Shown: one piece after another, positions 30,043 through 41,187 of the stretch
Position numbering within the stretch: position 1 is the stretch's first letter
Layout of the letters: every line of letters begins with the position of its first letter
Source: an uncultured Planctomycetia bacterium
GTDB lineage: Bacteria; Omnitrophota; Gorgyraeia; Kaelpiales; Kaelpiaceae
Reading direction: 5' to 3'
Length of the DNA: 41,187 nucleotides
NCBI GenBank assembly: GCA_964627735.1
Contig: CAZVIC010000001.1
Coordinates: 1-41,187 of the forward strand
Translations under genes and position numbers: made by a program
Notes under the pieces: model-generated
Database searches by the model: none
Seen by the model: the letters and a program-made list of their open reading frames with translations, nothing else
Told to the model about the DNA's origin: nothing

Positions 30043-30118
30043 GGGGACGTCGTCTAGCCTGGCCTAAGACCCCAGACTGTCGATCTGGTGATCGCGGGTT
30101 CGATTCCCGTCGTCCCCG
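30043..30118 (+). tRNA. tRNA-Asp (anticodon GTC), CCA not encoded
   Basis: Manual cloverleaf: acceptor GGGGACG/CGTCCCC, D arm GTCT-AGCCTGGCCTA-AGAC, anticodon arm CCAGA-CTGTCGA-TCTGG, T arm GCGGG-TTCGATT-CCCGT, discriminator G. Confidence 0.93.
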
Positions 30119-30299: not shown

Positions 30300-30788
30300 A
30301 TGAATTGTAAATGTTGCTTTTTCTCGGTGATAACGACTTTTTTGCTAATCTTGACTATTTCTCCAATCACTATTAATGCGCTAGAGCCAGTAGAACTCGA
30401 ATTTTTCGCAGGGCCTTGCAATTCTGAGCAAGCGCATGCTTGGGTTGAATCAACTCTTGGAATAAAGCATGTTGAATGGCTAGATAATACTACCTTAAAA
30501 ATAAAAGCTTTTGTAAGTTTGAATTGTGCTTCAAAGGTTGCTAAGGGAGATTATGAAATAACCTCTGACACAATTATTCTTAAATACATATGGGCGAATC
30601 CCACAAAATATGGTGGCGAAATGAGGGCTAAATGTATGTGTGCACAAGAATTGAATTATATATTCAAAAATTTAGAGAAAAAAGATTATCAATTCAAATT
30701 GGAGTCTAAAAAGGATATGTCTTATTCATCAGAAACGTTGGAGAAATTTGGCAATACTACACAAAATACTACACAAGAAAAGAAATGA
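30300..30788 (+). CDS. hypothetical secreted cysteine-containing protein (orphan cargo between the tRNA-Asp repeats)
   Basis: 162 aa. Signal peptide MNCKCCFFSVITTFLLILTISPITINA, SD AAGGATGG, and a C-terminal NTTQNTTQ tandem. I recognise no family. Confidence 0.6.
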   Translation: MNCKCCFFSVITTFLLILTISPITINALEPVELEFFAGPCNSEQAHAWVESTLGIKHVEWLDNTTLKIKAFVSLNCASKVAKGDYEITSDTIILKYIWANPTKYGGEMRAKCMCAQELNYIFKNLEKKDYQFKLESKKDMSYSSETLEKFGNTTQNTTQEKK

Positions 30789-30915: not shown

Positions 30916-32364
30916 ATGAGAAGAAATGACTGGTTTTTGCCGGTAGCCATAATAATAACAGCAGCACTTTTAAGGTCATATAGCTTAGGTACTCATTTTC
31001 TTTGGATAGACGAAGGAACTGGTTGGTATGTAGCAAAGTTTTTGAGCTTAAAAGATCTTTGGGCAAACAGAATCTATGTAGGACATTTTCCATTCTATTT
31101 TCTGTTTTTAAAGTTTTGGATTATGTTTTTTGGAGATTCAGAGTTTTCTTTGCGTCTACCTTCTTTAATTCCCTCCGTGATTGCGCTGGTAGTTTTTTTT
31201 AATATAAGCAAGTTGCTTTTAAAGACCAACATTGCAAGGCTTTGGTCTCTCTTTATCTTCTCTTTTTCGGTCTATAGCCTAACTCTTGCTCAGGAAGCAA
31301 GGATGTATTCAGTAGCTTTACTTTTATTCTGCTTTTTGATTTTTTTTCTAATTAAAATTATTGAGGATTATCCAAAATATTATTTCTTATATTCCTGTTC
31401 GCTTTTTTTGTTTCTACTAAATGGTAGTGTTTGTATAATCCCATATTTAGGATTATTGTTTTTTCTTTTACTTAAATTTAAAAATAAGATTTATAGAAAA
31501 ATATCTTTTTTAACTGTTTCCGTTTTAATTCCTTTTTTATTTCTATACTATTCAATGTTAGTTAAGTCTCTCAATGTGGATATTGGAGGTTATTATCTTA
31601 AACATAATTTTGTTCTTGAAACGCATCTATTTAATATACTTGGTTGGATTTTAAGATTCTTCAAAGATGTAGTCGGTTTTTCTGAGACAACTTTTTATAA
31701 TCTCTCTTATGGATTAACGTTAGTTTACTTCCTAGTATTTGTTTTGTTTTTATTGTTAGCTGTTTTCGGACTATTAAAGCTATCTAAAGAGTATAGAGAG
31801 ATTGCTTTAATGTTAATAGCAGTCTCTTTTTTATCCTTGCTTTTGAGCTATAAGTTTGAATCTCGTTATTTTTTTCATCTATTACCGTTTATAGCGATAG
31901 GCTGGGGAAATGCTATCTCTATGCTCTACAGCAAAAATAAGAAGCTAACAATGTTATTTATTCTTCTTTGGGGCGGTCTTTACACTAATGATACTATATT
32001 ATATTTTAAGGTTCCCAAGAGCGCTTGGGGTAATATTGCAGATTATATTGAAGATAATGAATCTTCTCAGGATGAAATATGGCTATTGCCTGATTTTTCA
32101 CACAGTGTTTTCAGTTATTACTATAGTGGGGAGAGTAAAATTATAGCAATAAAGTCAGCTGAAATACCTACCGTAGATAAAAAATCAGGAATCTGGTATT
32201 TAGTCTGGTCTAATGTAAAACTTCCATGGGTTGGGGGCAGGCATGCTATTGAAAAGGATAGATTTTTAAAAAGCTTGCTCTATCTTAAAGCTGATTTAGA
32301 GATGTCGAAATATTTTGTGACCAAAAATGGAGAGGTTGAATTACATTATTATATAGTAAAATGA
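30916..32364 (+). CDS. GT-C fold membrane glycosyltransferase (PMT_2 / ArnT / GT39-GT83-like; polyprenyl-phosphate-sugar dependent)
   Basis: 482 aa with about 11-13 TM helices. First-loop acidic motif LWIDEGTGWY, then SEFSLRLPSLIPSVIALVVFF, typical of the ArnT/PMT_2 family. C-terminal ~130-aa soluble (periplasmic) domain. Confidence 0.75.
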   Translation: MRRNDWFLPVAIIITAALLRSYSLGTHFLWIDEGTGWYVAKFLSLKDLWANRIYVGHFPFYFLFLKFWIMFFGDSEFSLRLPSLIPSVIALVVFFNISKLLLKTNIARLWSLFIFSFSVYSLTLAQEARMYSVALLLFCFLIFFLIKIIEDYPKYYFLYSCSLFLFLLNGSVCIIPYLGLLFFLLLKFKNKIYRKISFLTVSVLIPFLFLYYSMLVKSLNVDIGGYYLKHNFVLETHLFNILGWILRFFKDVVGFSETTFYNLSYGLTLVYFLVFVLFLLLAVFGLLKLSKEYREIALMLIAVSFLSLLLSYKFESRYFFHLLPFIAIGWGNAISMLYSKNKKLTMLFILLWGGLYTNDTILYFKVPKSAWGNIADYIEDNESSQDEIWLLPDFSHSVFSYYYSGESKIIAIKSAEIPTVDKKSGIWYLVWSNVKLPWVGGRHAIEKDRFLKSLLYLKADLEMSKYFVTKNGEVELHYYIVK

Positions 32365-32416: not shown

Positions 32417-32445
32417 TTGCATTTTTTTGAGTCGTATTATATAAT
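32417..32445 (+). promoter_or_regulatory. near-consensus sigma70 promoter TTGCAT-17 nt-TATAAT upstream of the 2,067-aa gene
   Basis: Read directly: TTGCAT 32417-32422 and TATAAT 32440-32445. This predicts a leader of about 80 nt. Confidence 0.5.
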
Positions 32446-32532: not shown

Positions 32533-35500
32533 ATGAGGATAAAAAAGGCACTTTTTAAAAAAAATAATTATTATTTAGGGATAATTGTATTTTTTTTAGT
32601 TTCATTCTTTTTCTCTCTTCCAGGTTTTTCTAAGTCTAATGCTGACAATTCTTTTGGTATTTTAGATTCAAATCAGAAAGGAACTTTTAATATTGGAATT
32701 GCTCTGGGTTCAACAGATAGGGTTTTTGACGAATCCTTAGACAAAGATATCTTAAGATTTAAATATTGGCTACCTCAGGGTTCTATTGTAGGGGTATGGA
32801 CAAAAGGCTATCCCGATGGCTTAGGTAAGGAGAATGTGGATGCTGTTAAGGTCTCTCTTAGAGCTCTTAGTAAAAAACAGCTTGAAGAGGTTGCTGTAAA
32901 GATGGAAATCAAGGGTTCCAGTTCTATGCAGTCAATACCTCTTGTTCTAAAAAATGGTTGGAGTTGTTTTCAAGAGGAGGTTGCTTGGAATACAATAGGT
33001 GATCTTCAAGAGGTATGCTTTGTTGTAACTACTATATCAGGTTTAGATGATGCTACTATCTCTAAGGATGTTTCAGGAGATAAAGCTTTAGAGGGTTTTC
33101 TGTTCTTTGATGTCGAGTTCTACAAGCAGAGTTTTTTGCATAAAAATTATATTTTCTTTAGATTGGCTCTGGTTCTTTTGCTAAGCATAATTATAGGTTT
33201 TGTTGTTAATTTAGTAACCAAGTCGCTGAAAATGAAGCCTAAAAAAAGAAAACTGGCAGCCAAAGCTAAACCTATTTCTTCAGATATCTCTACCCTTACT
33301 AAAATAAAAAGAGATTTACTTTACGGATTAACGTCAGCATTAATAGTTGCGGTTGCCTTTGGGGTATGTTTTCTTAGTACAATCTGTCCGCTAAGTAATG
33401 GTTTTAGTTTGGAATTCATCTTTTTTGGTTTAATAGGTGCGGTCATATCAGAGTTGCTTAAGTTTACAATTACAGGTAGACATCTTAGTCCTTTTCAAGC
33501 ATTTAAGAATGCTTTAATTGTTGGGCTTTTAGCTGCTTCTTCAAGTAGACTTGGAATTCTATTTGCTCCTTCAACATTTGGTCAGGTCTTGATGTTAAAT
33601 AGATATATTGCTGTTATTATCTTTTTAATCTATCAGATGTCCAATGCACGTTCTTTGGCAATTGATGGTAAGCATGTTGGTGTTTTTACAAGTTTTTCAA
33701 TAATATTAACGCCCTATATTTTTAATTGGTTAATGCTTTTGCAGACCCCTATACTTCTTGGGCAGTTAGGTAATATTTTAACTCTAGGGGTTTTATCGTC
33801 GTTTCAAGGTTTTCTGGAAGCTTTGGGTAGAGTTATTGTTCTATTTGGATTTAACGAGGCTATTGCAAATGGCTTTAGTTTGGTCATAAAGAAGGAGCTG
33901 CTTAAGAAGCGCAAACTCCATCTCTTTATTTTACTTATCTCAGTGGGTGTTGTTCTTGCGCCTGTAATAGCAGATTTAGGTTCTACTGCTAAGGTTGGTT
34001 CTCTGCCTGAGGTGGTTAAGATCTTTGTGGTTATATTAACAACCATGTTCTCTTTTGCAGGACTATGGGGCATAGTCTATTTCTTAACAGGAATAGCTCT
34101 TGATTATGGACGTAGAATAGCTCCTTCATGGGAGAGCGTAACTAGTCATGTGAAGACAGGAGTCAAGAAGGGTATGGCTTACAGCGCTCTTCTAATGGGT
34201 TTTATATATTCTGTCTATCTGTTACTAGATTTTAATATACTGCAGTTAGTAGCAGAGAAGACCCCTCTTTTTTTAGGTGTTTTTATTGGGGCTTTGACTT
34301 TGCCGCTATTTAAAACAATTATAGAGACTTTTGATGGTAGTCTGCCTTTTTTTCAGAGAGCACGTTACAACTATCGTGACCATGTTCTTTATGCAAGAGG
34401 TGTTATTTTAGGTCTAGGAGTTGCCTATGCCTTAAGCAATGATTTTATTAATTGGGGTATGTCAAATAGGGTTTTATTTGGTGCTGTTCTTGGTATCTTC
34501 TCATCTGCAGGCATAAGTATCCTTAGAGATGTTTTTTATAAGTCCAAATCTCAGGGGCGGATTCAATCCTGGAGGAGGTATTTAGTCGATGCTATTCTAG
34601 GTGCTTTTATTGGCAGCGCACTAGCTTTCTACCTTGATGCTTTGCAGGTCCCAGTTGTCGTAGAGAAGTTTAAATTGTATACAAGTTCAGGTTTTAAAGC
34701 CGTTGAATATATTACTTATCCTTTGGTTAACAGGTGGGGAAGGATAGATCTAGGAAACTATAGCGGTGGAGTCAGGTTGTTGTTTGACGAATCACTCGCC
34801 GGAGTAATTAACTGGGCTGTTGCTGCTTGGCTATTTGCTATAAACAAAGTCTTTCTTCTTGCTCTTTTTGAAAAACATAAAACACCGATTAAGTTTTTCT
34901 TCTCAAGAGAGGGGCTCTCTCAGCTTATAGAGCATATGATATACGTCTTGCGTTGGGGTTTATGGATGTCACCCATTATATTTACTTTTTTGCGGATGAT
35001 GCCAGATCCAACATGGTACAACCAGGATGGAGCTATCCGTACGCTCTTTGCTATATATCACAATTTAACGATGTCAGATCAGGCATTTAGGCAGTGGAGT
35101 CTCAATCTTTTTGTATATGTTCTTGCTTTTGATTTTTTCCGGGTTCTTATCTGGATGGATCATATGGGCCTACGTGTTGCAACTCTGGTTAACTTGAGTT
35201 TTATAGGATTAGACAAGCTTGACGATAAAGTTGCGCGGTTTATTAAGATGGATACAGCTCAACGTTATATTCCAGAAGCTGTTAAAAGATTTTGCACTTG
35301 GGGTCCTCTTTTAATACCGTTCTATATTCCAAGAGGAGAGGATTGGAACTATGCTTGGAATAAATCAGGGGCTATACGTGATTCTCTTGGAGGAGGTATC
35401 TTTGCTTTTTTAGAGGGCGTTAGATTACATCAGATGCTCTTATCATTTATTGTTGCAATATTTGTTTTTAGTGTAGCATCGTTTTTAATCCGCTCTTTTA

Positions 35501-38500
35501 GACGGCGTTCCAAAAAGAAATGCATAAAGGTTTATCATCTTGCTAACAAAGTTGGATATAGAACTTTTCTTAAGGAAAATGGAGAGATATATAGTCAGGT
35601 TGATCATAAAAAGAGCAGCGTCTATCCTCCGGAATATGATATCACCAGGCGATCCTATGATCTTATAGACCCTTGCGGTAGGATTCTCTATTTAGTTGAT
35701 ACTTCTGTTGAATCTAATCAGCGCTATTGGCCTGTAGTTGGCAACTTCCCTGAAGATAAATTCCGATCTTCTAAAATCAGTGCTAATCTAAATTCTCTAA
35801 AAGTTGTTAACTCTTCAAACGGTATTGAAACTACTGTTGATATAACTTTACCTAATCAAGATAGCAGGGTTGAGATTTGGAAGATAAATATCAAAAACCT
35901 TAAAAATGATAAGCGCAATTTAAAGGTTGTTCCTTACTTAGAATGGGTTCTTAATGGAGGCTTACATGATAGGTTCCATACTCAATATGCACGGCTATTC
36001 CCTGAGATGGAGTATGTTAGCGGGTTCAATACTCTTCTATCCTGGCAAAAGTGTACTAATTCTATGGGTATTTTAGCAACCGATGTATCTCCAGAAGGTA
36101 TTTTGTTTTCCAGAATGGATTTTATAGGTCGTGCCCAAAGTATCTGGCATCCAAGAGTGCTTGATACTTTAGATTTCATGAAGGCTCAGAATACCGAACG
36201 TTATCCGACTTTCGATCCGATTGGAAGTCTTATGCTTAATGTGGATCTCGATCCTAAATCTTCTAAGACCATACATCTTATGATTGGCTATGAAGAGAGT
36301 CGTAGTTCTGCTCTTGATTTGGTGAAGAGAACATTAAAACCTAAACAGACTGCTGTAGATTACGAACCCAAAAGAGAGAAAAAACTGCTTATTGGTCATG
36401 GAGAGATTCTTCCTGGAACACCACAGCCTTATTCTGAATACGTAGAGAATGGAAATAAGATATTAGTCCGTACTCCTTATACTCCCAGACCTTATGATCA
36501 TGCTATGTCTAACTCTCTAGGGCATTCTGTTATGGTTACGAATCGTGGCCTTCATACATCTTGTAACGGAAACTCTCAGCAGAACCGCTTGACTCCAGAT
36601 TGGTCTGATACTGTTACAAGAGAGATTCCTGGGGAGGCAATATACTTATATGACATAGATGAAAATAGGTGGTACTCTCCTACCTATTTCCCGCTTAATG
36701 ATAATAGCGTTAAGAATACATCTGAATTCAGCGTTGATGGTAGTGCAGTTTTTAATATGAAAGGAAAAGATATCTCAACCGAGCTTACCGTTTTTGTACC
36801 TCCAGATGAACCTTTAGGTGTCTATCTTTTGAAGATAAAAAATAATAGTGGTCGCAAGAAGAGATTTCGTGTTGCTCCTTATTTTCAGATGGTACTTGAG
36901 TTTATGCCTGAACGATCAGGTGAGTTACTAATAAACTATGATAAAGATAACGATGCTATTCTGTTTCACAATCCGCGCAATATGTTCCGTAAAGGTTGGG
37001 CTTTTGTATCAAGTTCAATCCATTCTGAGAGCATAGAGACAAAAAGAGGTAGGTTCTTTGGTTCAGGTCGAGGTGTGACCAAACCATTTATGGTAGAGAA
37101 GGGCAGAGCTGATAGTACTCAACTTTGTGACGACAGCCAGATAGCTGCTCTTTTAAATACGGTGGATATTCCTGCAGGTGGAGATTGTACGGTTGCATTT
37201 ATTTTGGGTCAGACAGATAAAAGAGATGAGGCGCTTAAGCTGGTTAAGAAATATAAAAGCTTGGATTATGTTAACAAGAGCCTTGATAATACACGTAGCT
37301 GGTGGTTAAGCTTCGTAGAAACAGTAGAGGTTAAAACAAATCAGGTTGAGTTTGATCGTTATCAAAATTGGCTTAAATACCAGGCTTTGGCAGAGAGGAT
37401 CTGGGCTCGAAGAGGTTTTTATCAGACAAGCGGAGCATTTGGCTTTAGAGATCAGCTTCAGGATTCTGTAAACCTTATCTGGGTAGACCCCATGTTGGCT
37501 AGGAAACAGATTATTCTTCATGCTTCTCACCAATTCTTTGAAGGAGACGTTTATCACTGGTTCTTTACTCAGCTTGATGGTAGAACTGCTTTTGCCTGTC
37601 GTTCTCATGCCTCAGATAATCCTCTTTGGCTTTCTTGGGCTATTGTAGAGTACGTTAGAATGACCGGTGATAATTCGCTTTTAGATGAAACAGCATCCTA
37701 TGTATGGTCAGAGTTTCCCTTTGCTGATCTACCACACAATAAGACAGGCTGGGGTCATATCTACCATCGTTCAACCAGAGCAGAGTCTATCTATAAACAT
37801 GCTTTAAGGTCTATAGATCTTATTTTAGAAAAACGGTTAGGAGAACATGGAATACCATTGATAAGGACCGGAGACTGGAATGACGGTTTGGATGAAATAG
37901 GGAGCGAAGGAAGAGGTGAGAGTATATGGTTAGGATTCTTCCTATATTACATCTTAAGGCATATGCTTCCTATAATTGAGAAAGAAGAAGGTCTTGATAG
38001 AAAAGAACACTACTTAAGAAAATTGCAGAAATTAGAGAATGCTCTTGAAGGTACTTGGAGAGAAGATAGATATTTACGAGCTATTCACGATGATGGCACT
38101 GAGATTGGAATAAAAGATAGTGGTGTCTGGGAGATAGATGCTCTGACTGCTGCTTGGGCTGTTAAAGCTGGTGTAAACCTAGAAAGGTCACTTATAGTAT
38201 TCCATACTGCACTAGAGGTGCTTGAAAAAGAAGATGTTGTCTTACTTGGTTGGCCGGCATTGCGTGAAGATACAAAGCCTTACCTTGGGAGAAGCTCTAG
38301 GTATCCTGAGGGAGTTCGTGAGAACGGTATGTATTGTCATGGTGTACAATGGCTTATAAAGGCATCTAGAGTCCTTGCAGAGCGTTTTGAGAAGCTAGGG
38401 GACTATAAGAAGGCTGATGAGTATAGAGCTATAAGCTATAGACTTTGGCGTAAGATTACACCCATTGATCATGTAATAGGGGATAAAATAGAAATTTATG

Positions 38501-38736
38501 GTGGCCAACCTAATAAGCAACCAGCAGATATTCTTACTAATTTTGAGGTTGGGCGTATGATTTGGAATGGATATACTGGTGCTGCTGGTTGGCTATTTCG
38601 TCAATCAATGGAAGGTGTTGTAGGAGCATCTCTTGTAGATAATAAATTGGTAATACCAGATGATATCAACAAACCTAGAGGCGTGCTAAGAGTAGAGAAG
38701 GTTTCTAGAGATATAACTAGGAGCCCTCTAAGTTAG
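32533..38736 (+). CDS. giant multidomain membrane protein: exported N-terminal domain + ~18-20 TM helices + C-terminal GH94-family glucan phosphorylase module (1,2-beta-oligoglucan / cellobiose phosphorylase / cyclic-glucan-synthase C-terminus type)
   Basis: Uninterrupted 2,067-aa ORF. Signal/anchor helix at aa ~14-31, a hydrophilic beta-rich domain at aa ~35-200, and hydrophobic helices at aa ~205-986 with only short loops. The soluble region aa ~1000-2067 carries GH94-type motifs: FGFRDQLQD (aa 1636-1644), TGDWNDGLD (aa 1779-1787), RENGMYCHGVQW (aa 1929-1940), YTGAAGW. It also has the PRPYDHAMSN...NRLTPDWSDTVTREIPGEAIYLYD beta-sandwich signature. Confidence 0.85.
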   Translation: MRIKKALFKKNNYYLGIIVFFLVSFFFSLPGFSKSNADNSFGILDSNQKGTFNIGIALGSTDRVFDESLDKDILRFKYWLPQGSIVGVWTKGYPDGLGKENVDAVKVSLRALSKKQLEEVAVKMEIKGSSSMQSIPLVLKNGWSCFQEEVAWNTIGDLQEVCFVVTTISGLDDATISKDVSGDKALEGFLFFDVEFYKQSFLHKNYIFFRLALVLLLSIIIGFVVNLVTKSLKMKPKKRKLAAKAKPISSDISTLTKIKRDLLYGLTSALIVAVAFGVCFLSTICPLSNGFSLEFIFFGLIGAVISELLKFTITGRHLSPFQAFKNALIVGLLAASSSRLGILFAPSTFGQVLMLNRYIAVIIFLIYQMSNARSLAIDGKHVGVFTSFSIILTPYIFNWLMLLQTPILLGQLGNILTLGVLSSFQGFLEALGRVIVLFGFNEAIANGFSLVIKKELLKKRKLHLFILLISVGVVLAPVIADLGSTAKVGSLPEVVKIFVVILTTMFSFAGLWGIVYFLTGIALDYGRRIAPSWESVTSHVKTGVKKGMAYSALLMGFIYSVYLLLDFNILQLVAEKTPLFLGVFIGALTLPLFKTIIETFDGSLPFFQRARYNYRDHVLYARGVILGLGVAYALSNDFINWGMSNRVLFGAVLGIFSSAGISILRDVFYKSKSQGRIQSWRRYLVDAILGAFIGSALAFYLDALQVPVVVEKFKLYTSSGFKAVEYITYPLVNRWGRIDLGNYSGGVRLLFDESLAGVINWAVAAWLFAINKVFLLALFEKHKTPIKFFFSREGLSQLIEHMIYVLRWGLWMSPIIFTFLRMMPDPTWYNQDGAIRTLFAIYHNLTMSDQAFRQWSLNLFVYVLAFDFFRVLIWMDHMGLRVATLVNLSFIGLDKLDDKVARFIKMDTAQRYIPEAVKRFCTWGPLLIPFYIPRGEDWNYAWNKSGAIRDSLGGGIFAFLEGVRLHQMLLSFIVAIFVFSVASFLIRSFRRRSKKKCIKVYHLANKVGYRTFLKENGEIYSQVDHKKSSVYPPEYDITRRSYDLIDPCGRILYLVDTSVESNQRYWPVVGNFPEDKFRSSKISANLNSLKVVNSSNGIETTVDITLPNQDSRVEIWKINIKNLKNDKRNLKVVPYLEWVLNGGLHDRFHTQYARLFPEMEYVSGFNTLLSWQKCTNSMGILATDVSPEGILFSRMDFIGRAQSIWHPRVLDTLDFMKAQNTERYPTFDPIGSLMLNVDLDPKSSKTIHLMIGYEESRSSALDLVKRTLKPKQTAVDYEPKREKKLLIGHGEILPGTPQPYSEYVENGNKILVRTPYTPRPYDHAMSNSLGHSVMVTNRGLHTSCNGNSQQNRLTPDWSDTVTREIPGEAIYLYDIDENRWYSPTYFPLNDNSVKNTSEFSVDGSAVFNMKGKDISTELTVFVPPDEPLGVYLLKIKNNSGRKKRFRVAPYFQMVLEFMPERSGELLINYDKDNDAILFHNPRNMFRKGWAFVSSSIHSESIETKRGRFFGSGRGVTKPFMVEKGRADSTQLCDDSQIAALLNTVDIPAGGDCTVAFILGQTDKRDEALKLVKKYKSLDYVNKSLDNTRSWWLSFVETVEVKTNQVEFDRYQNWLKYQALAERIWARRGFYQTSGAFGFRDQLQDSVNLIWVDPMLARKQIILHASHQFFEGDVYHWFFTQLDGRTAFACRSHASDNPLWLSWAIVEYVRMTGDNSLLDETASYVWSEFPFADLPHNKTGWGHIYHRSTRAESIYKHALRSIDLILEKRLGEHGIPLIRTGDWNDGLDEIGSEGRGESIWLGFFLYYILRHMLPIIEKEEGLDRKEHYLRKLQKLENALEGTWREDRYLRAIHDDGTEIGIKDSGVWEIDALTAAWAVKAGVNLERSLIVFHTALEVLEKEDVVLLGWPALREDTKPYLGRSSRYPEGVRENGMYCHGVQWLIKASRVLAERFEKLGDYKKADEYRAISYRLWRKITPIDHVIGDKIEIYGGQPNKQPADILTNFEVGRMIWNGYTGAAGWLFRQSMEGVVGASLVDNKLVIPDDINKPRGVLRVEKVSRDITRSPLS

Positions 38737-39802: not shown

Positions 39803-39875
39803 GGTCCCGTAGCTCAATTGGCAGAGCAGCTGACTCATAATCAGTTGGTTCCAGGTTCAAGTCCTGGCGGGACCA
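39803..39875 (+). tRNA. tRNA with CAT anticodon, elongator-type Met (tRNA-Ile2/lysidine not excluded)
   Basis: Acceptor GGTCCCG/CGGGACC with a paired 1-72, so not an initiator. D arm GCTC-AATTGGCA-GAGC, anticodon arm GCTGA-CTCATAA-TCAGT, T arm CCAGG-TTCAAGT-CCTGG. Confidence 0.9.
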
Positions 39876-39902: not shown

Positions 39903-39976
39903 GGGCGGTTAGCTCAGTTGGCTAGAGCGCCACGTTCACATCGTGGATGTCGGAGGTTCAAGTCCTCTATCGCCCA
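39903..39976 (+). tRNA. tRNA-Val (anticodon CAC)
   Basis: Acceptor GGGCGGT/ATCGCCC, D arm GCTC-AGTTGGCTA-GAGC, anticodon arm CCACG-TTCACAT-CGTGG, T arm GGAGG-TTCAAGT-CCTCT. Confidence 0.92.
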
Positions 39977-39990
39977 ATTGGTTATTTTAT

Positions 39991-40710
39991 ATGAAAGTAC
40001 AAGATTTTAAAAAACAGATTGAGTTTTTAAAAGAGCTTCAGAATTATGATTCTAAGCTCCATGATTTAAATTTTCGTAAAGAGGATATGCCTAAAAAGCT
40101 TCAAGATTTTAGAAATGGATTGGATCAGAAAAAAGAAGATATTGATAAGATTGAAGAAGAGAGTAAAGACCTGCAGGTTAAGATAAAAGATAAGGAGCTA
40201 GAACTTCAAGCTGCTGAAGAGGGAATTCAAAAGTTTAAACAACAGCTTCTCCAGATAAAAACTAATAAAGAGTACAAAGCTCTCTTAAGCGAGATAGATG
40301 GTAAAAAGGCTGATAATTCATGCATTGAAGATGAAATATTAAAATTGATGGATAGCCTAGATGAAGTAGGGACAGTTCTTAATAGAGAGAAGGGTGAGCT
40401 TAAGAAGCTTGAAGAGGAGTTTCAGCAGGAAGAGAACAAGGTTAAGCAAGAGATAGTTGTGGTTGAAGAGGATATCAAATCTCAAAAAGCAGAGAGAGAT
40501 AAAATTGCTCAAGAGGTGGATTCTGAAATCCTCTCTATATATGAAAGATTGATTGAAAGTAAAGAATGTTTAGCCGTTGTTCCAGTTATTGATGGTGCCT
40601 GCGGCGGCTGTCATCTAAGTCTTCGCCCTCAAACAATAAACGAGATAAAAAAGGCAGACAATACTGTGACTTGTGAGCGCTGCTCTAGGATGTTCTATCT
40701 CGATGAGTAG
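39991..40710 (+). CDS. coiled-coil protein with C-terminal C4 zinc ribbon (COG1579/DUF164-like)
   Basis: The ATG at 39991 (MKVQDFKKQIEFL...) is preferred because the listed 39943 start lies inside tRNA-Val. Long heptad region, then CGGCHLSLRPQ...CERCSRMFY. Confidence 0.75.
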   Translation: MKVQDFKKQIEFLKELQNYDSKLHDLNFRKEDMPKKLQDFRNGLDQKKEDIDKIEEESKDLQVKIKDKELELQAAEEGIQKFKQQLLQIKTNKEYKALLSEIDGKKADNSCIEDEILKLMDSLDEVGTVLNREKGELKKLEEEFQQEENKVKQEIVVVEEDIKSQKAERDKIAQEVDSEILSIYERLIESKECLAVVPVIDGACGGCHLSLRPQTINEIKKADNTVTCERCSRMFYLDE

Positions 40711-41116: not shown

Positions 41117-41117
41117 A

Positions 41118-41187
41118 GAGGCAGGTTGGATGGCCGCTCTTTCTTTTGAAGGAGAGGAAAGTCCGAACTCAGAGGGTGAGTGTATTC
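41118..41187 (+). ncRNA. rnpB: RNase P RNA (bacterial type A), 5' portion truncated by the window end
   Basis: P3-like hairpin CTCTTTC-TTTT-GAAGGAG followed by the universally conserved AGGAAAGTCCG..CTC.GAGGG..AG block (compare E. coli GGAGGAAAGUCCGGGCUCCAUAGGGCAG). Confidence 0.7.

What the first reader, a model, noticed from the sequence alone, without database searches (positions are those of the whole stretch)
32533..38736. 2,067-aa fusion of an exported domain, a ~20-helix membrane domain and a complete GH94 phosphorylase, with no glycosyltransferase domain
Seen: a single intact ORF. Its last ~1,070 aa carry the motif set of GH94 enzymes (FRDQLQD, GDWND, RENG.Y.H..W, TGAAGW, plus the duplicated N-terminal beta-sandwich region). 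That is about the size of a free-standing 1,2-beta-oligoglucan phosphorylase. The module is fused to ~780 aa of tightly packed TM helices and an N-terminal extracytoplasmic domain. Established: the known membrane-bound GH94-containing protein family is cyclic beta-1,2-glucan synthase (Cgs/NdvB/ChvB). There a cytoplasmic GT84 domain polymerises from UDP-glucose and the GH94 part trims chain length. Soluble GH94 enzymes are catabolic phosphorylases. Here no loop between helices exceeds about 50 aa, so a GT-A domain cannot be present. Inference: either the phosphorylase runs in the synthetic direction (glucose-1-phosphate donor) and feeds a glucan through its own channel, or the protein couples beta-glucan import to phosphorolysis. 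As far as I know, neither arrangement has been described.
Basis: partly seen in the sequence, partly recalled or inferred. Interest (0 to 1): 0.85.

Follow-up and report, generated by a model that had tools for sequence, protein, structure and literature searches.

The report
Membrane-embedded beta-1,2-glucan phosphorylase, new membrane domain
This Omnitrophota gene fuses a sugar-binding module outside the cell, a roughly 19-helix membrane domain unlike any solved structure, and a complete Cgs-type GH94 phosphorylase inside the cell; relatives occur in more than 500 species, nobody has characterised it, and it may move a glucan chain across the membrane.

Summary
ORF 32533-38736 is intact and encodes 2067 aa. 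It has a signal or anchor segment, an exported CBM11-like beta-sandwich (aa 40-197), about 19 TM helices (aa 205-996) and a full GH94 module (aa ~1000-2067). No glycosyltransferase domain appears by Pfam, NCBIfam, PDB profile search or AlphaFold2.

It is not a chimera. Relatives of the membrane domain occur in 559 species genomes, mainly Omnitrophota. Every full-length relative inspected also carries GH94.

[quoted passage not shown] The membrane domain has no Pfam, PDB sequence or Foldseek match, despite a confident model. Its C-terminal third is the most conserved part of the protein.

In about a quarter of loci, exported SGL-clan beta-1,2-glucanase-like genes lie nearby. One conserved cluster adds a sugar ABC importer, a ROK kinase, a soluble GH94 and a two-component system.

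My best reading (0.42) is a catabolic membrane phosphorylase. The new domain would thread beta-1,2-glucan inward to the GH94 site. A G1P-driven synthase-exporter (0.2) and a non-conduit role (0.25) remain open. The family is real, widespread and apparently undescribed; the mechanism is untested.

The parts
32533..38736 (+). Whole gene: 2067-aa fusion of CBM-like domain, membrane domain and GH94 module
   Evidence: Intact ORF. It aligns end to end with about 40 homologues at 46-84% identity.
32417..32445 (+). Promoter-like TTGCAT-N17-TATAAT, 88 nt upstream of the ATG (weak evidence)
   Evidence: Found by regular-expression search of the sequence. The consensus scanner did not list it. It is a sequence match only.
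32533..32649 (+). N-terminal signal peptide or signal anchor (aa 1-39; hydrophobic core aa 15-33)
   Evidence: Hydropathy peak of 2.15 at aa 15-33, preceded by K/R-rich residues. Poorly conserved in the family: 13% mean identity.
32650..33123 (+). Exported CBM11-like beta-sandwich module (aa 40-197)
   Evidence: The AF2 model shows an all-beta domain with pLDDT about 85. Foldseek matches CtCBM11 (1v0a, 6r31) at E about 1e-4, TM-score to target 0.55. hhalign gives 95.6% probability, E=1.3e-8, against the N-terminal CBM module of the SGL-clan neighbour proteins. Larger homologues carry 1-4 tandem copies; the ~1800-aa subfamily has none. The window copy has no Pfam hit.
33145..35520 (+). Membrane domain of about 19 TM helices (aa 205-996) with no known family or fold
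   Evidence: Hydropathy. AF2 model of the domain alone has pLDDT 82.6 and pTM 0.79 and is all-helical except for one hairpin. The best Foldseek PDB hit has E=0.055 and all TM-scores are <=0.2. No Pfam hit at E<=10 and no PDB profile hit. No internal repeat by hhalign. Loop K+R counts fit an N-out, C-in topology.
34633..35412 (+). Most conserved core of the protein (aa 701-960): periplasmic hairpin, TM15-18, and motifs RWGLWM (807-812), WYNQDG (828-833), DHMGLR (876-881), PFYIPRG (929-935)
   Evidence: Mean identity to the query is 71-73% across 42 homologues, against 67% for the GH94 catalytic barrel. Ten of the 16 Trp residues in the membrane domain are invariant. Invariant columns are listed.
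35557..36288 (+). GH94 supersandwich copy 1 (aa ~1009-1252), equivalent to Cgs subdomain GP1
   Evidence: PF06165, E=1.2e-27, on aa 991-1316 scanned alone. BLAST maps it to Cgs residues ~1620-1900. It starts within about 5-10 residues of the last TM helix.
36499..37209 (+). GH94 supersandwich copy 2 (aa 1323-1559)
   Evidence: This is the best-scoring PF06165 stretch.
37300..38625 (+). GH94 (alpha/alpha)6 catalytic domain (aa 1590-2031), including FRDQLQD (nt 37444-37464) and GDWND (nt 37870-37884)
   Evidence: PF17167, E=4.9e-61. Aligns to the A. tumefaciens Cgs phosphorylase domain at E=5e-108 for the single sequence and 2.4e-169 for the family profile. The second Asp of GDWND aligns with Cgs catalytic acid D2528, by counting along the alignment and taking the residue number from PMC10901819. 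These motif columns are invariant in 43 sequences.

Best explanation
The gene encodes a membrane-integrated glycoside phosphorylase of the GH94 family. Its most likely substrate is beta-1,2-glucan.

Shown:
- A CBM11-like module is predicted to lie outside the inner membrane.
- A strongly conserved domain of about 19 TM helices, with no known relatives, follows it.
- A complete Cgs-type GH94 module with intact catalytic motifs starts within a few residues of the last TM helix, on the cytoplasmic side.
- The protein carries no glycosyltransferase.

Inferred:
- The membrane domain is a conduit that links glucan in the periplasm to the cytoplasmic active site.
- The outer CBM captures a linear beta-1,2-glucan chain.
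- The chain is threaded through the membrane domain, non-reducing end first.
- The GH94 module removes glucose units with phosphate and releases glucose-1-phosphate inside the cell.
- Phosphorolysis, at cellular phosphate levels far above glucose-1-phosphate, would act as the ratchet that pulls the chain in.

The physiological role would be catabolic. The substrate could be exogenous beta-1,2-glucan or the cell's own periplasmic glucan, cut by exported SGL-clan glucanases encoded nearby in many genomes.
For: Domain facts.

GH94 module.
- It is closest to the Cgs phosphorylase domain (2.4e-169). Cellobiose phosphorylases score 1e-60 and SOGP 1.5e-3.
- Catalytic motifs are invariant in the family.

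Topology and coupling.
- Charge bias fits CBM outside and GH94 inside.
- There is almost no linker between the last TM helix and GH94.
- The membrane domain is fused to GH94 in every full-length representative inspected. It was not seen with any other catalytic domain.
- aa 701-960 is the most conserved part of the protein, and 10 of 16 Trp in the membrane domain are invariant, as expected for sugar contacts.

Context.
- A PF10091/SGL-clan gene lies within about 5-7 kb in 16 of 69 species loci. Gene order differs among Omnitrophota, Elusimicrobia and FCPU426.
- These neighbours carry signal or lipoprotein sequences and the same CBM module.
- Their best PDB matches are beta-1,2-glucanase XCC2207, GH144 SGL and the Cgs cyclisation domain.
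- The closest relative, Ca. Kaelpia imicola, shares the window's gene order. It has such a gene just past the point where the window ends.
- One conserved cluster reads: SBP, soluble 803-aa GH94, response regulator, histidine kinase, CBM protein, SGL-like, TPR protein, this gene, GH189-like lipoprotein, two ABC permeases, ROK kinase. That is a catabolic layout.
- In FCPU426 the gene is followed directly by an SBP and two permeases.

Established knowledge: characterised GH94 enzymes work in the phosphorolytic direction in vivo, including the length-control domain of Cgs (PMC10901819).
Against: - No transport or enzymatic data exist.
- I could not inspect model coordinates. A continuous path through the membrane domain to the GH94 -1 subsite has not been shown.
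- Where the catabolic cluster is present it already encodes an ABC importer and a soluble GH94. A second import route is therefore not obviously needed.
- About three quarters of loci show no glucan genes within the flanks available. These include the alphaproteobacterial ones and the 41-kb window itself.
- The conserved 11-locus cluster may partly reflect shared ancestry rather than function.
- Beta-1,2 specificity rests on similarity to Cgs and on neighbours, not on mapping of subsite residues.
- No polymer-threading importer driven by phosphorolysis is known, so the prior is low.
Confidence: 0.42

Rival explanations
1. Synthase-exporter. The GH94 module runs in the synthetic direction, with glucose-1-phosphate as donor and a sophoro-oligosaccharide primer. 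It pushes the growing beta-1,2-glucan out through the membrane domain. Outside, the CBM and exported SGL-clan enzymes hold, trim or cyclise it. This would be a glycosyltransferase-free analogue of Cgs or of OpgH/OpgG.
For: - The nearest relatives of the GH94 module, and of one neighbour, are domains of the biosynthetic enzyme Cgs.
- A membrane synthase paired with periplasmic beta-1,2-glucanases is the known layout for OPG biosynthesis. OpgG and OpgD are glucanases or transglycosylases (review PMC11842490).
- A periplasmic TPR protein sits immediately upstream in 11-12 loci. From my own knowledge, TPR partners are typical of synthase-dependent polysaccharide secretion.
- The gene is widespread and usually stands alone among housekeeping genes, as in this window.
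- Exit-side CBM-like domains are known in BcsB (own knowledge).
Against: - No phosphorylase is known to act as the physiological polymerase of a bacterial envelope glucan.
- Cellular phosphate/glucose-1-phosphate ratios favour phosphorolysis (established knowledge).
- No priming function is evident.
- The GH189-like neighbour keeps the acid/base Glu (YTEPR) but has Pro where Cgs and TiCGS have the nucleophile Glu (GMSPS against GISE). It is probably not a retaining cyclase.
- The conserved cluster carries an SBP-dependent importer, a ROK kinase and a soluble GH94, which are catabolic features.
Confidence: 0.2
2. The enzyme is catabolic but the membrane domain is not a glucan conduit. Instead it would anchor or scaffold the phosphorylase at the membrane, for example beside an ABC importer. 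Alternatively it has a separate job: sensing, binding or modifying periplasmic glucan, or an unrelated transport activity. GH94 would simply degrade oligosaccharides imported by other systems.
For: - ABC importer genes accompany the gene in two phyla.
- No structural similarity to any known channel, transporter or synthase was found.
- No direct evidence for a pore exists.
Against: - About 800 residues and 19 helices are far more than an anchor needs.
- The domain's core is more conserved than the catalytic barrel, with invariant Trp, Asp, Arg and Asn motifs on both membrane faces.
- It was not found without GH94 in any full-length sequence inspected, or with any other partner domain.
- The link to GH94 is rigid and has essentially no linker.
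- Most genomes show no adjacent ABC system.
Confidence: 0.25
3. The ORF is an artefact: an assembly chimera of a membrane-protein gene and a phosphorylase gene, or a decayed Cgs that has lost its GT84 and cyclase parts.
For: - In the Ca. Kaelpia imicola MAG the orthologue is called as two ORFs of 1512 and 567 aa.
- One TM-only ORF (P0081) ends 16 nt before a contig end.
Against: - Relatives of the membrane domain occur in 559 species genomes and 590 clusters at 50% identity. Every full-length relative inspected has the same end-to-end architecture, and the junction is conserved.
- The Kaelpia split lies inside GH94, not at the domain junction. It looks like a frameshift or sequencing error.
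- The membrane domain shares nothing with the 6-TM region of Cgs.
- The catalytic motifs are under clear purifying selection.
Confidence: 0.01

Closest known systems
[quoted passage not shown]
   Same: It is the only characterised membrane-bound protein with a GH94 module. That C-terminal phosphorylase domain is the closest solved relative of aa ~1000-2067 (E=2.4e-169). Both have two supersandwich domains and an (alpha/alpha)6 barrel, and the FRDQLQD and GDWND catalytic motifs are shared.
   Different: Cgs has 6 TM helices, an N-terminal domain, a GT84 polymerase, a PF10091/GH189 cyclase and a Rossmann-like insert between GP1 and GP2. All of its soluble domains are cytoplasmic (PMC10901819). 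This protein has none of these parts. It has instead about 19 TM helices of an unrelated fold and an exported CBM.
Soluble 1,2-beta-oligoglucan phosphorylase (SOGP; Lin1839, LpSOGP PDB 5H3Z)
   Same: It is a GH94 enzyme of about 1100 aa with an extra N-terminal domain. It acts on beta-1,2-gluco-oligosaccharides. It is encoded in catabolic clusters with ABC importers and beta-1,2-glucanases (PMC3960220; PMC12102758).
   Different: It is soluble. Its sequence is only remotely related to this family (profile E=1.5e-3).
OpgH/OpgG system for osmoregulated periplasmic glucans
   Same: It pairs an inner-membrane protein that handles beta-1,2-glucan across the membrane with periplasmic beta-1,2-glucanase or transglycosylase partners. 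This is a functional analogy.
   Different: OpgH is a GT2 enzyme that uses UDP-glucose. OpgG and OpgD are GH186, not SGL-clan. There is no sequence or fold relationship.
Processive synthase-translocases with exit-side carbohydrate-binding domains (BcsA-BcsB)
   Same: The concept is the same: a cytoplasmic catalytic site directly coupled to a membrane path for a glucan chain, with jelly-roll sugar-binding domains on the periplasmic side (own knowledge).
   Different: BcsA is GT2. Foldseek found no similarity between the membrane domain and any PDB entry. The direction proposed here is inward.
Phosphotransferase-type group translocation
   Same: Uptake is coupled to a chemical change that delivers a phosphorylated sugar to the cytoplasm. 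This is an analogy only.
   Different: There is no homology. The phosphate here would come from inorganic phosphate by phosphorolysis of a polymer, not from PEP.

Membership tests
GH94 glycoside phosphorylases | Supersandwich domain (PF06165) followed by the (alpha/alpha)6 catalytic domain (PF17167) | tested here: met
   PF06165 scores E=2.6e-67 with two copies. PF17167 scores E=4.9e-61, matching profile positions 1-420 of 420.
GH94 glycoside phosphorylases | Catalytic acid Asp in the DWND motif, plus the FRDxxQD, RENG...H and TGxxGW motifs that surround the sugar and phosphate site | tested here: met
   All motifs are present. They align with those of Cgs and cellobiose phosphorylase and are invariant in 43 family members. 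The roles of individual phosphate-binding residues are from my memory, not tested here.
GH94 glycoside phosphorylases | Phosphorolytic activity on a beta-glucoside | not testable with these tools
   This needs an enzyme assay.
[quoted passage not shown] | GT84 (GT2-like) polymerase domain docked under the TM helices | tested here: not met
   No GT hit appears in Pfam, even at E<=10 on pieces of the protein, in NCBIfam or in a PDB profile search. AF2 shows aa 200-1000 as all-helical with no alpha/beta domain.
[quoted passage not shown] | PF10091/GH189 cyclisation domain in the same polypeptide | tested here: not met
   It is absent here. Every true Cgs hit carries PF10091.
[quoted passage not shown] | C-terminal GH94 length-control domain | tested here: met
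   The family profile matches 8rf9 residues 2034-2764 with E=2.4e-169. The first sandwich matches Cgs residues ~1620-1900.
[quoted passage not shown] | Six TM helices and a Rossmann-like insert between GP1 and GP2 | tested here: not met
   The protein has about 19 TM helices. Only about 70 aa separate the two sandwich domains here. The Cgs insert is 166 aa.
1,2-beta-oligoglucan phosphorylase (SOGP) subfamily | Close sequence relationship to Lin1839 or LpSOGP | tested here: not met
   5h3z scores only E=1.5e-3, 18.7 bits, against the family profile. phmmer does not find it at all.
Known membrane glycosyltransferase, transporter or channel folds (GT-C, BcsA-type, MFS, ABC, MOP, AT3 and others), tested for aa 205-996 | Structural similarity of the membrane domain to a solved member | tested here: not met
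   Foldseek of the confident model (pLDDT 82.6) against 350,542 PDB chains gave a best E of 0.055 and TM-scores <=0.2. Only solved structures were searched; AlphaFold DB was not available.
CBM11-type carbohydrate-binding module, tested for aa 40-197 | Beta-jelly-roll fold and sequence match to PF03425 | tested here: inconclusive
   The fold matches CtCBM11 at E about 1e-4 with TM-score to target 0.55. The window copy has no Pfam hit. Homologous modules in neighbour proteins hit PF03425 at up to E=1.9e-7 and are linked to this domain by hhalign at E=1.3e-8. Sugar binding was not tested.

The most novel reading that the evidence does not exclude
The roughly 19-helix domain is a new class of polysaccharide translocon, hard-wired to a phosphorylase. 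The protein would move a beta-1,2-glucan chain across the inner membrane and drive that movement by chemistry at the chain end. One option is vectorial phosphorolysis: import that delivers glucose-1-phosphate. The other is the reverse, nucleotide-sugar-independent synthesis and export. Either would be a transport-catalysis coupling not known for any glycoside phosphorylase, carried out by a membrane fold with no solved relative.
Probability: 0.55. Interest if true: 0.9.

Novelty: new variant of a known kind. Interest (0 to 1): 0.72.

Why it matters
Beta-1,2-glucans are envelope and host-interaction polymers. Their enzymology has only recently been mapped (SOGP, SGL/GH144, GH162, GH186, GH189 and the Cgs structure).

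This family adds a widespread player that has been overlooked. Relatives occur in 559 species genomes and 590 sequence clusters. They are found widely in Omnitrophota and also in Elusimicrobia, Planctomycetota, Auribacterota and Hyphomicrobiales. Databases label them only as 'hypothetical', 'GT36' or, wrongly, 'cyclic beta-1,2-glucan synthetase'.

Two things would follow if the membrane domain carries the glucan chain:
- It would be the first phosphorylase-coupled polysaccharide translocon.
- It would suggest how periplasmic glucans are retrieved or, alternatively, made without nucleotide sugars.

Even on the most conservative reading, it defines a large new membrane-domain family with a confident model and no structural relatives. 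It also corrects a recurrent misannotation.

Tried and rejected
- GT domain hidden in the membrane region: rejected. Pfam was run on the whole protein and on four pieces at E<=10, with NCBIfam, a PDB profile search and AF2 secondary structure.
- Membrane domain related to a known fold: nothing significant. Foldseek was run on aa 1-1020 and on aa 200-1000 alone; the first run matched only the CBM.
- Internal duplication of the membrane domain: none found by hhalign between sub-alignments.
- Alternative architectures of the membrane domain: none found. A profile search of 1.84 billion representatives gave 590 hits. All long hits have GH94, and short hits have no other Pfam domain. Only the best 150 hits are visible, so the weak tail (E from 1e-10 to 1e-3) could not be examined.
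- A second word-indexed search with the membrane-domain profile returned only 10 partial proteins and added nothing.
- Assembly chimera: rejected.
- Periplasmic 'cyclase' partner: the GH189-like neighbour lacks the nucleophile Glu in the pairwise alignment. I therefore did not use it as support for a split Cgs.
- Conserved neighbourhood in Alphaproteobacteria and several Omnitrophota: none found.
- Upstream PMT_2-like gene as a partner: it is conserved only in Kaelpia.
- Literature: five searches found no description of a GT-less TM-GH94 protein. Subscription-only papers are not covered.
- Not possible: I could not read model coordinates, so pore geometry and the TM-GH94 interface were not examined.

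Full report
**Observation.** The window holds one uninterrupted ORF at 32533-38736 (+), encoding 2067 aa. Pfam finds only GH94 domains. PF06165 occurs twice (aa ~1009-1252 and 1323-1559) and PF17167 once (aa 1590-2031). NCBIfam finds nothing.

Hydropathy and two AlphaFold2 models give a consistent layout:
- an N-terminal signal or anchor segment (hydrophobic core aa 15-33);
- an all-beta domain (aa 40-197);
- about 19 TM helices (aa 205-996);
- the GH94 module, starting within about 5-10 residues of the last helix.

Model confidence is good: pLDDT 79.0 and pTM 0.75 for aa 1-1020, and pLDDT 82.6 and pTM 0.79 for aa 200-1000. Loop K+R counts alternate cleanly. They place the N-terminal domain outside and GH94 in the cytoplasm. 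One claim needs correcting. Two non-hydrophobic gaps of 77-80 aa exist, so it is not true that no loop exceeds 50 aa. They are helical and cannot hold a GT-A domain.

**The gene is real.** The window protein aligns end to end with about 40 proteins at 46-84% identity. These come mostly from Omnitrophota MAGs, with some from Elusimicrobia.
- A profile of the membrane domain alone found 590 clusters (50% identity level) among 1.84 billion representatives.
- Every long hit also carries GH94. Short hits carry no other Pfam domain.
- A scan of one genome per GTDB species found 559 genomes encoding a relative. The top 80 are mainly Omnitrophota, with Elusimicrobia, Auribacterota, Sumerlaeota, Planctomycetota and FCPU426.
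- A shorter subfamily of about 1800 aa lacks the exported domain. It occurs in Hyphomicrobiales, Beijerinckiaceae, Methylocystaceae and Deltaproteobacteria.
- Source annotations read 'hypothetical', 'glycosyl transferase family 36', 'GH36-type...' or 'cyclic beta-1,2-glucan synthetase'.

An assembly chimera is therefore excluded.

**Source organism.** The window comes from a close relative of Candidatus Kaelpia imicola (Omnitrophota). The proteins are 84% identical and the gene order is the same.

**The GH94 module.**
- The family profile matches the phosphorylase (GP) domain of A. tumefaciens Cgs at E=2.4e-169.
- Cellobiose and chitobiose phosphorylases score 1e-60 to 1e-40.
- The soluble 1,2-beta-oligoglucan phosphorylase LpSOGP (5h3z) scores only 1.5e-3.
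- The first sandwich corresponds to Cgs subdomain GP1. The Rossmann-like insert of Cgs is absent.
- The second Asp of GDWND aligns with Cgs catalytic acid D2528.
- The catalytic motifs are invariant across 43 sequences.

The module is thus a complete, apparently active phosphorylase of the Cgs type rather than the SOGP type.

**What is absent.** True Cgs proteins carry PF10091 (the cyclase) and a GT84 domain, and they have 6 TM helices. All were checked here and none is present. The protein is therefore not a Cgs. That database label is a misannotation.

**The exported domain.** Foldseek matches CBM11 of C. thermocellum (1v0a, 6r31) at E about 1e-4 and TM-score to target about 0.55. Many other CBM jelly-rolls also match. 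hhalign links the domain to the N-terminal CBM module of neighbouring SGL-clan proteins at 95.6% probability, E=1.3e-8. Homologues carry between 0 and 4 tandem copies.

**The membrane domain.**
- It has no Pfam match even at E<=10.
- It has no PDB sequence or profile match.
- No internal repeat is detectable.
- Foldseek against 350,542 PDB chains finds nothing. The best hit has E=0.055 and all TM-scores are <=0.2.

It is therefore unlike GT-C enzymes, BcsA-type channels, MFS, ABC or MOP transporters and AT3 proteins, at least at Foldseek's sensitivity. Its C-terminal third (aa 701-960) is the most conserved part of the whole protein. Mean identity there is 71-73%, against 67% for the catalytic barrel. 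This segment holds the invariant motifs RWGLWM, WYNQDG, DHMGLRVATLVNLSF and PLLIPFYIPRG. A further motif, ETFDGS, sits at a cytoplasmic helix end. Ten of the domain's 16 Trp residues are invariant. This pattern is typical of sugar-contacting surfaces, although that reading is an inference.

**Genomic context.** The window itself is a housekeeping region with every gene on the + strand. It runs thiE, thiC ... lptC, tig, clpP, serA, purA, H+-PPase, uppS, cdsA, dxr, rseP, ispG, proS. A PMT_2-like membrane protein comes next, then this gene, then an inositol monophosphatase, a CT398-like protein and RNase H.

In Ca. Kaelpia imicola the same order continues with RNase P RNA and a 459-aa PF10091 protein. 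Its best PDB match is beta-1,2-glucanase XCC2207 at 3.9e-24. That position lies just beyond the window's end.

Among 69 species loci with the gene, 16 have an SGL-clan gene within about 5-7 kb. Among the 33 loci with at least 3 kb of flank on both sides, 8 do. Gene order differs between Omnitrophota, Elusimicrobia and FCPU426.

One cluster is conserved in at least 11 Omnitrophota loci. In order it contains:
- a solute-binding protein (SBP);
- a soluble 803-aa GH94;
- an OmpR-type response regulator and a histidine kinase;
- a CBM11-like protein;
- a CBM-carrying SGL-like enzyme (XCC2207 5e-65, GH144 5e-44);
- a TPR protein;
- this gene;
- a lipoprotein with a CBM11-like module and a GH189-like domain (TiCGS cyclisation domain 5.6e-44, Cgs CY domain 4e-39);
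- two ABC permeases;
- a ROK kinase.

In FCPU426 the gene is followed directly by an SBP and two permeases.

The GH189-like neighbour keeps the acid/base Glu but has Pro at the nucleophile position of TiCGS E1442 and Cgs E1386. It is probably a glucanase rather than a cyclase.

Other loci show no glucan genes nearby. These include the alphaproteobacterial ones.

**Mechanism.** These points are shown:
- a cytoplasmic Cgs-type phosphorylase;
- a rigid join to a conserved new membrane domain;
- a CBM on the outside;
- recurrent association with exported beta-1,2-glucanase-like enzymes that share the same CBM.

The enzyme needs phosphate or glucose-1-phosphate, which are cytoplasmic. The CBM and the partner enzymes are outside. 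The simplest link between them is that the membrane domain passes the glucan chain across the membrane.

The direction is inferred, on three grounds. Every characterised GH94 works phosphorolytically in vivo. Cellular phosphate greatly exceeds glucose-1-phosphate. The conserved cluster has a catabolic layout. I therefore favour import or turnover coupled to phosphorolysis (0.42).

The synthase-exporter alternative (0.2) draws on the analogy with OpgH/OpgG and Cgs, on the TPR partner, and on the housekeeping context of most loci. A non-conduit role for the membrane domain (0.25) is kept because ABC importers and a soluble GH94 accompany the gene where the cluster is complete, and because no pore has been demonstrated. 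The remaining probability covers functions I have not considered.

**Novelty.** Five literature searches and a reading of the Cgs structure paper, the GH189 paper, the cyclisation review and the new-SGL-families paper turned up no GT-less TM-GH94 protein. The GH94 part is a known kind. The membrane domain and the fusion are new. I rate this as a new variant of a known kind. There is a substantial chance (about 0.55, import or export combined) that it is a categorically new translocation mechanism.

**Limits.**
- There is no wet-lab evidence.
- I had no access to model coordinates.
- Only solved structures were searched.
- The weak tail of the profile search was not visible.
- Beta-1,2 specificity is inferred from relatives and neighbours.

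Noticed in passing
window 41117-41187 (+); L083 18593-18899: The last ~70 nt of the window are the 5' end of a class A RNase P RNA, cut off by the window edge. The Ca. Kaelpia imicola orthologous region scores 172.5 bits for RF00010 and aligns to the window's end. The window itself gives no Rfam call.
   Followed up: yes
L083 19139-20518 (just beyond the window's 3' end by synteny): In the closest relative, a 459-aa PF10091/SGL-clan protein follows RNase P RNA. It has an N-terminal hydrophobic signal-like sequence and its best PDB match is beta-1,2-glucanase XCC2207 (3.9e-24). The window's organism probably has the same gene about 0.5 kb past position 41187.
   Followed up: partly
window 39903-39976 and 39943-40710: tRNA-Val(CAC) overlaps the mechanically called GTG start of the CT398-like / zinc-ribbon ORF. 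The real start of that gene must lie further downstream. tRNA-Met sits at 39803-39875, tRNA-Asp at 30043-30118 and tRNA-Gly at 2232-2306.
   Followed up: no
window 30916-32364 (+): The gene immediately upstream encodes a 482-aa PMT_2-like (GT-C type) membrane protein (E=8.9e-7). It is conserved at this position in Ca. Kaelpia imicola but not next to the TM-GH94 gene in other lineages. Its function and any link to the glucan system are unknown.
   Followed up: partly
window 30300-30788 (+): This 162-aa ORF between tRNA-Asp and the PMT_2-like gene has no Pfam hit. Kaelpia has no called gene at the equivalent place, so it may not be a real gene.
   Followed up: no
L083 10001-16197: The Ca. Kaelpia imicola orthologue is called as two overlapping ORFs of 1512 and 567 aa. 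The break lies inside the GH94 region, not at a domain border. It is probably a frameshift or sequencing error in that MAG.
   Followed up: no
L084 16222-18270; L008 13678-15744: The lipoprotein encoded directly downstream of the TM-GH94 gene in at least 10 Omnitrophota loci is most similar to the Cgs/TiCGS cyclisation domain (GH189). It keeps the acid/base Glu (YTEPR) but has Pro at the nucleophile position (GMSPS against GISE). It may represent an unrecognised, non-retaining branch of this clan.
   Followed up: partly
L091 510-2921: The conserved Omnitrophota cluster also encodes a soluble 803-aa GH94. It is equally similar to cellobiose phosphorylases and to the Cgs phosphorylase domain (both about 1e-150) and only 28% identical to the window's GH94 module. 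Its specificity is unknown; a sophorose-type disaccharide phosphorylase is one possibility.
   Followed up: partly
L001 16261-18381 and three other loci: A protein of about 700 aa with no Pfam hit lies directly downstream of the TM-GH94 gene in four loci. One is the 2.16-Mb contig that carries P0039. I did not test whether it is a divergent SGL-clan member.
   Followed up: no
L085/L086 6001-9012: P0081 is a 1003-aa ORF containing only the CBM-like and membrane domains. It ends 16 nt before the contig end in two assemblies. It could be a genuinely split gene or an assembly break.
   Followed up: no
window 1-41187: Essentially every credible ORF is on the + strand and GC skew is positive throughout (0.07-0.34). 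This suggests one long co-directional block on the leading strand.
   Followed up: no
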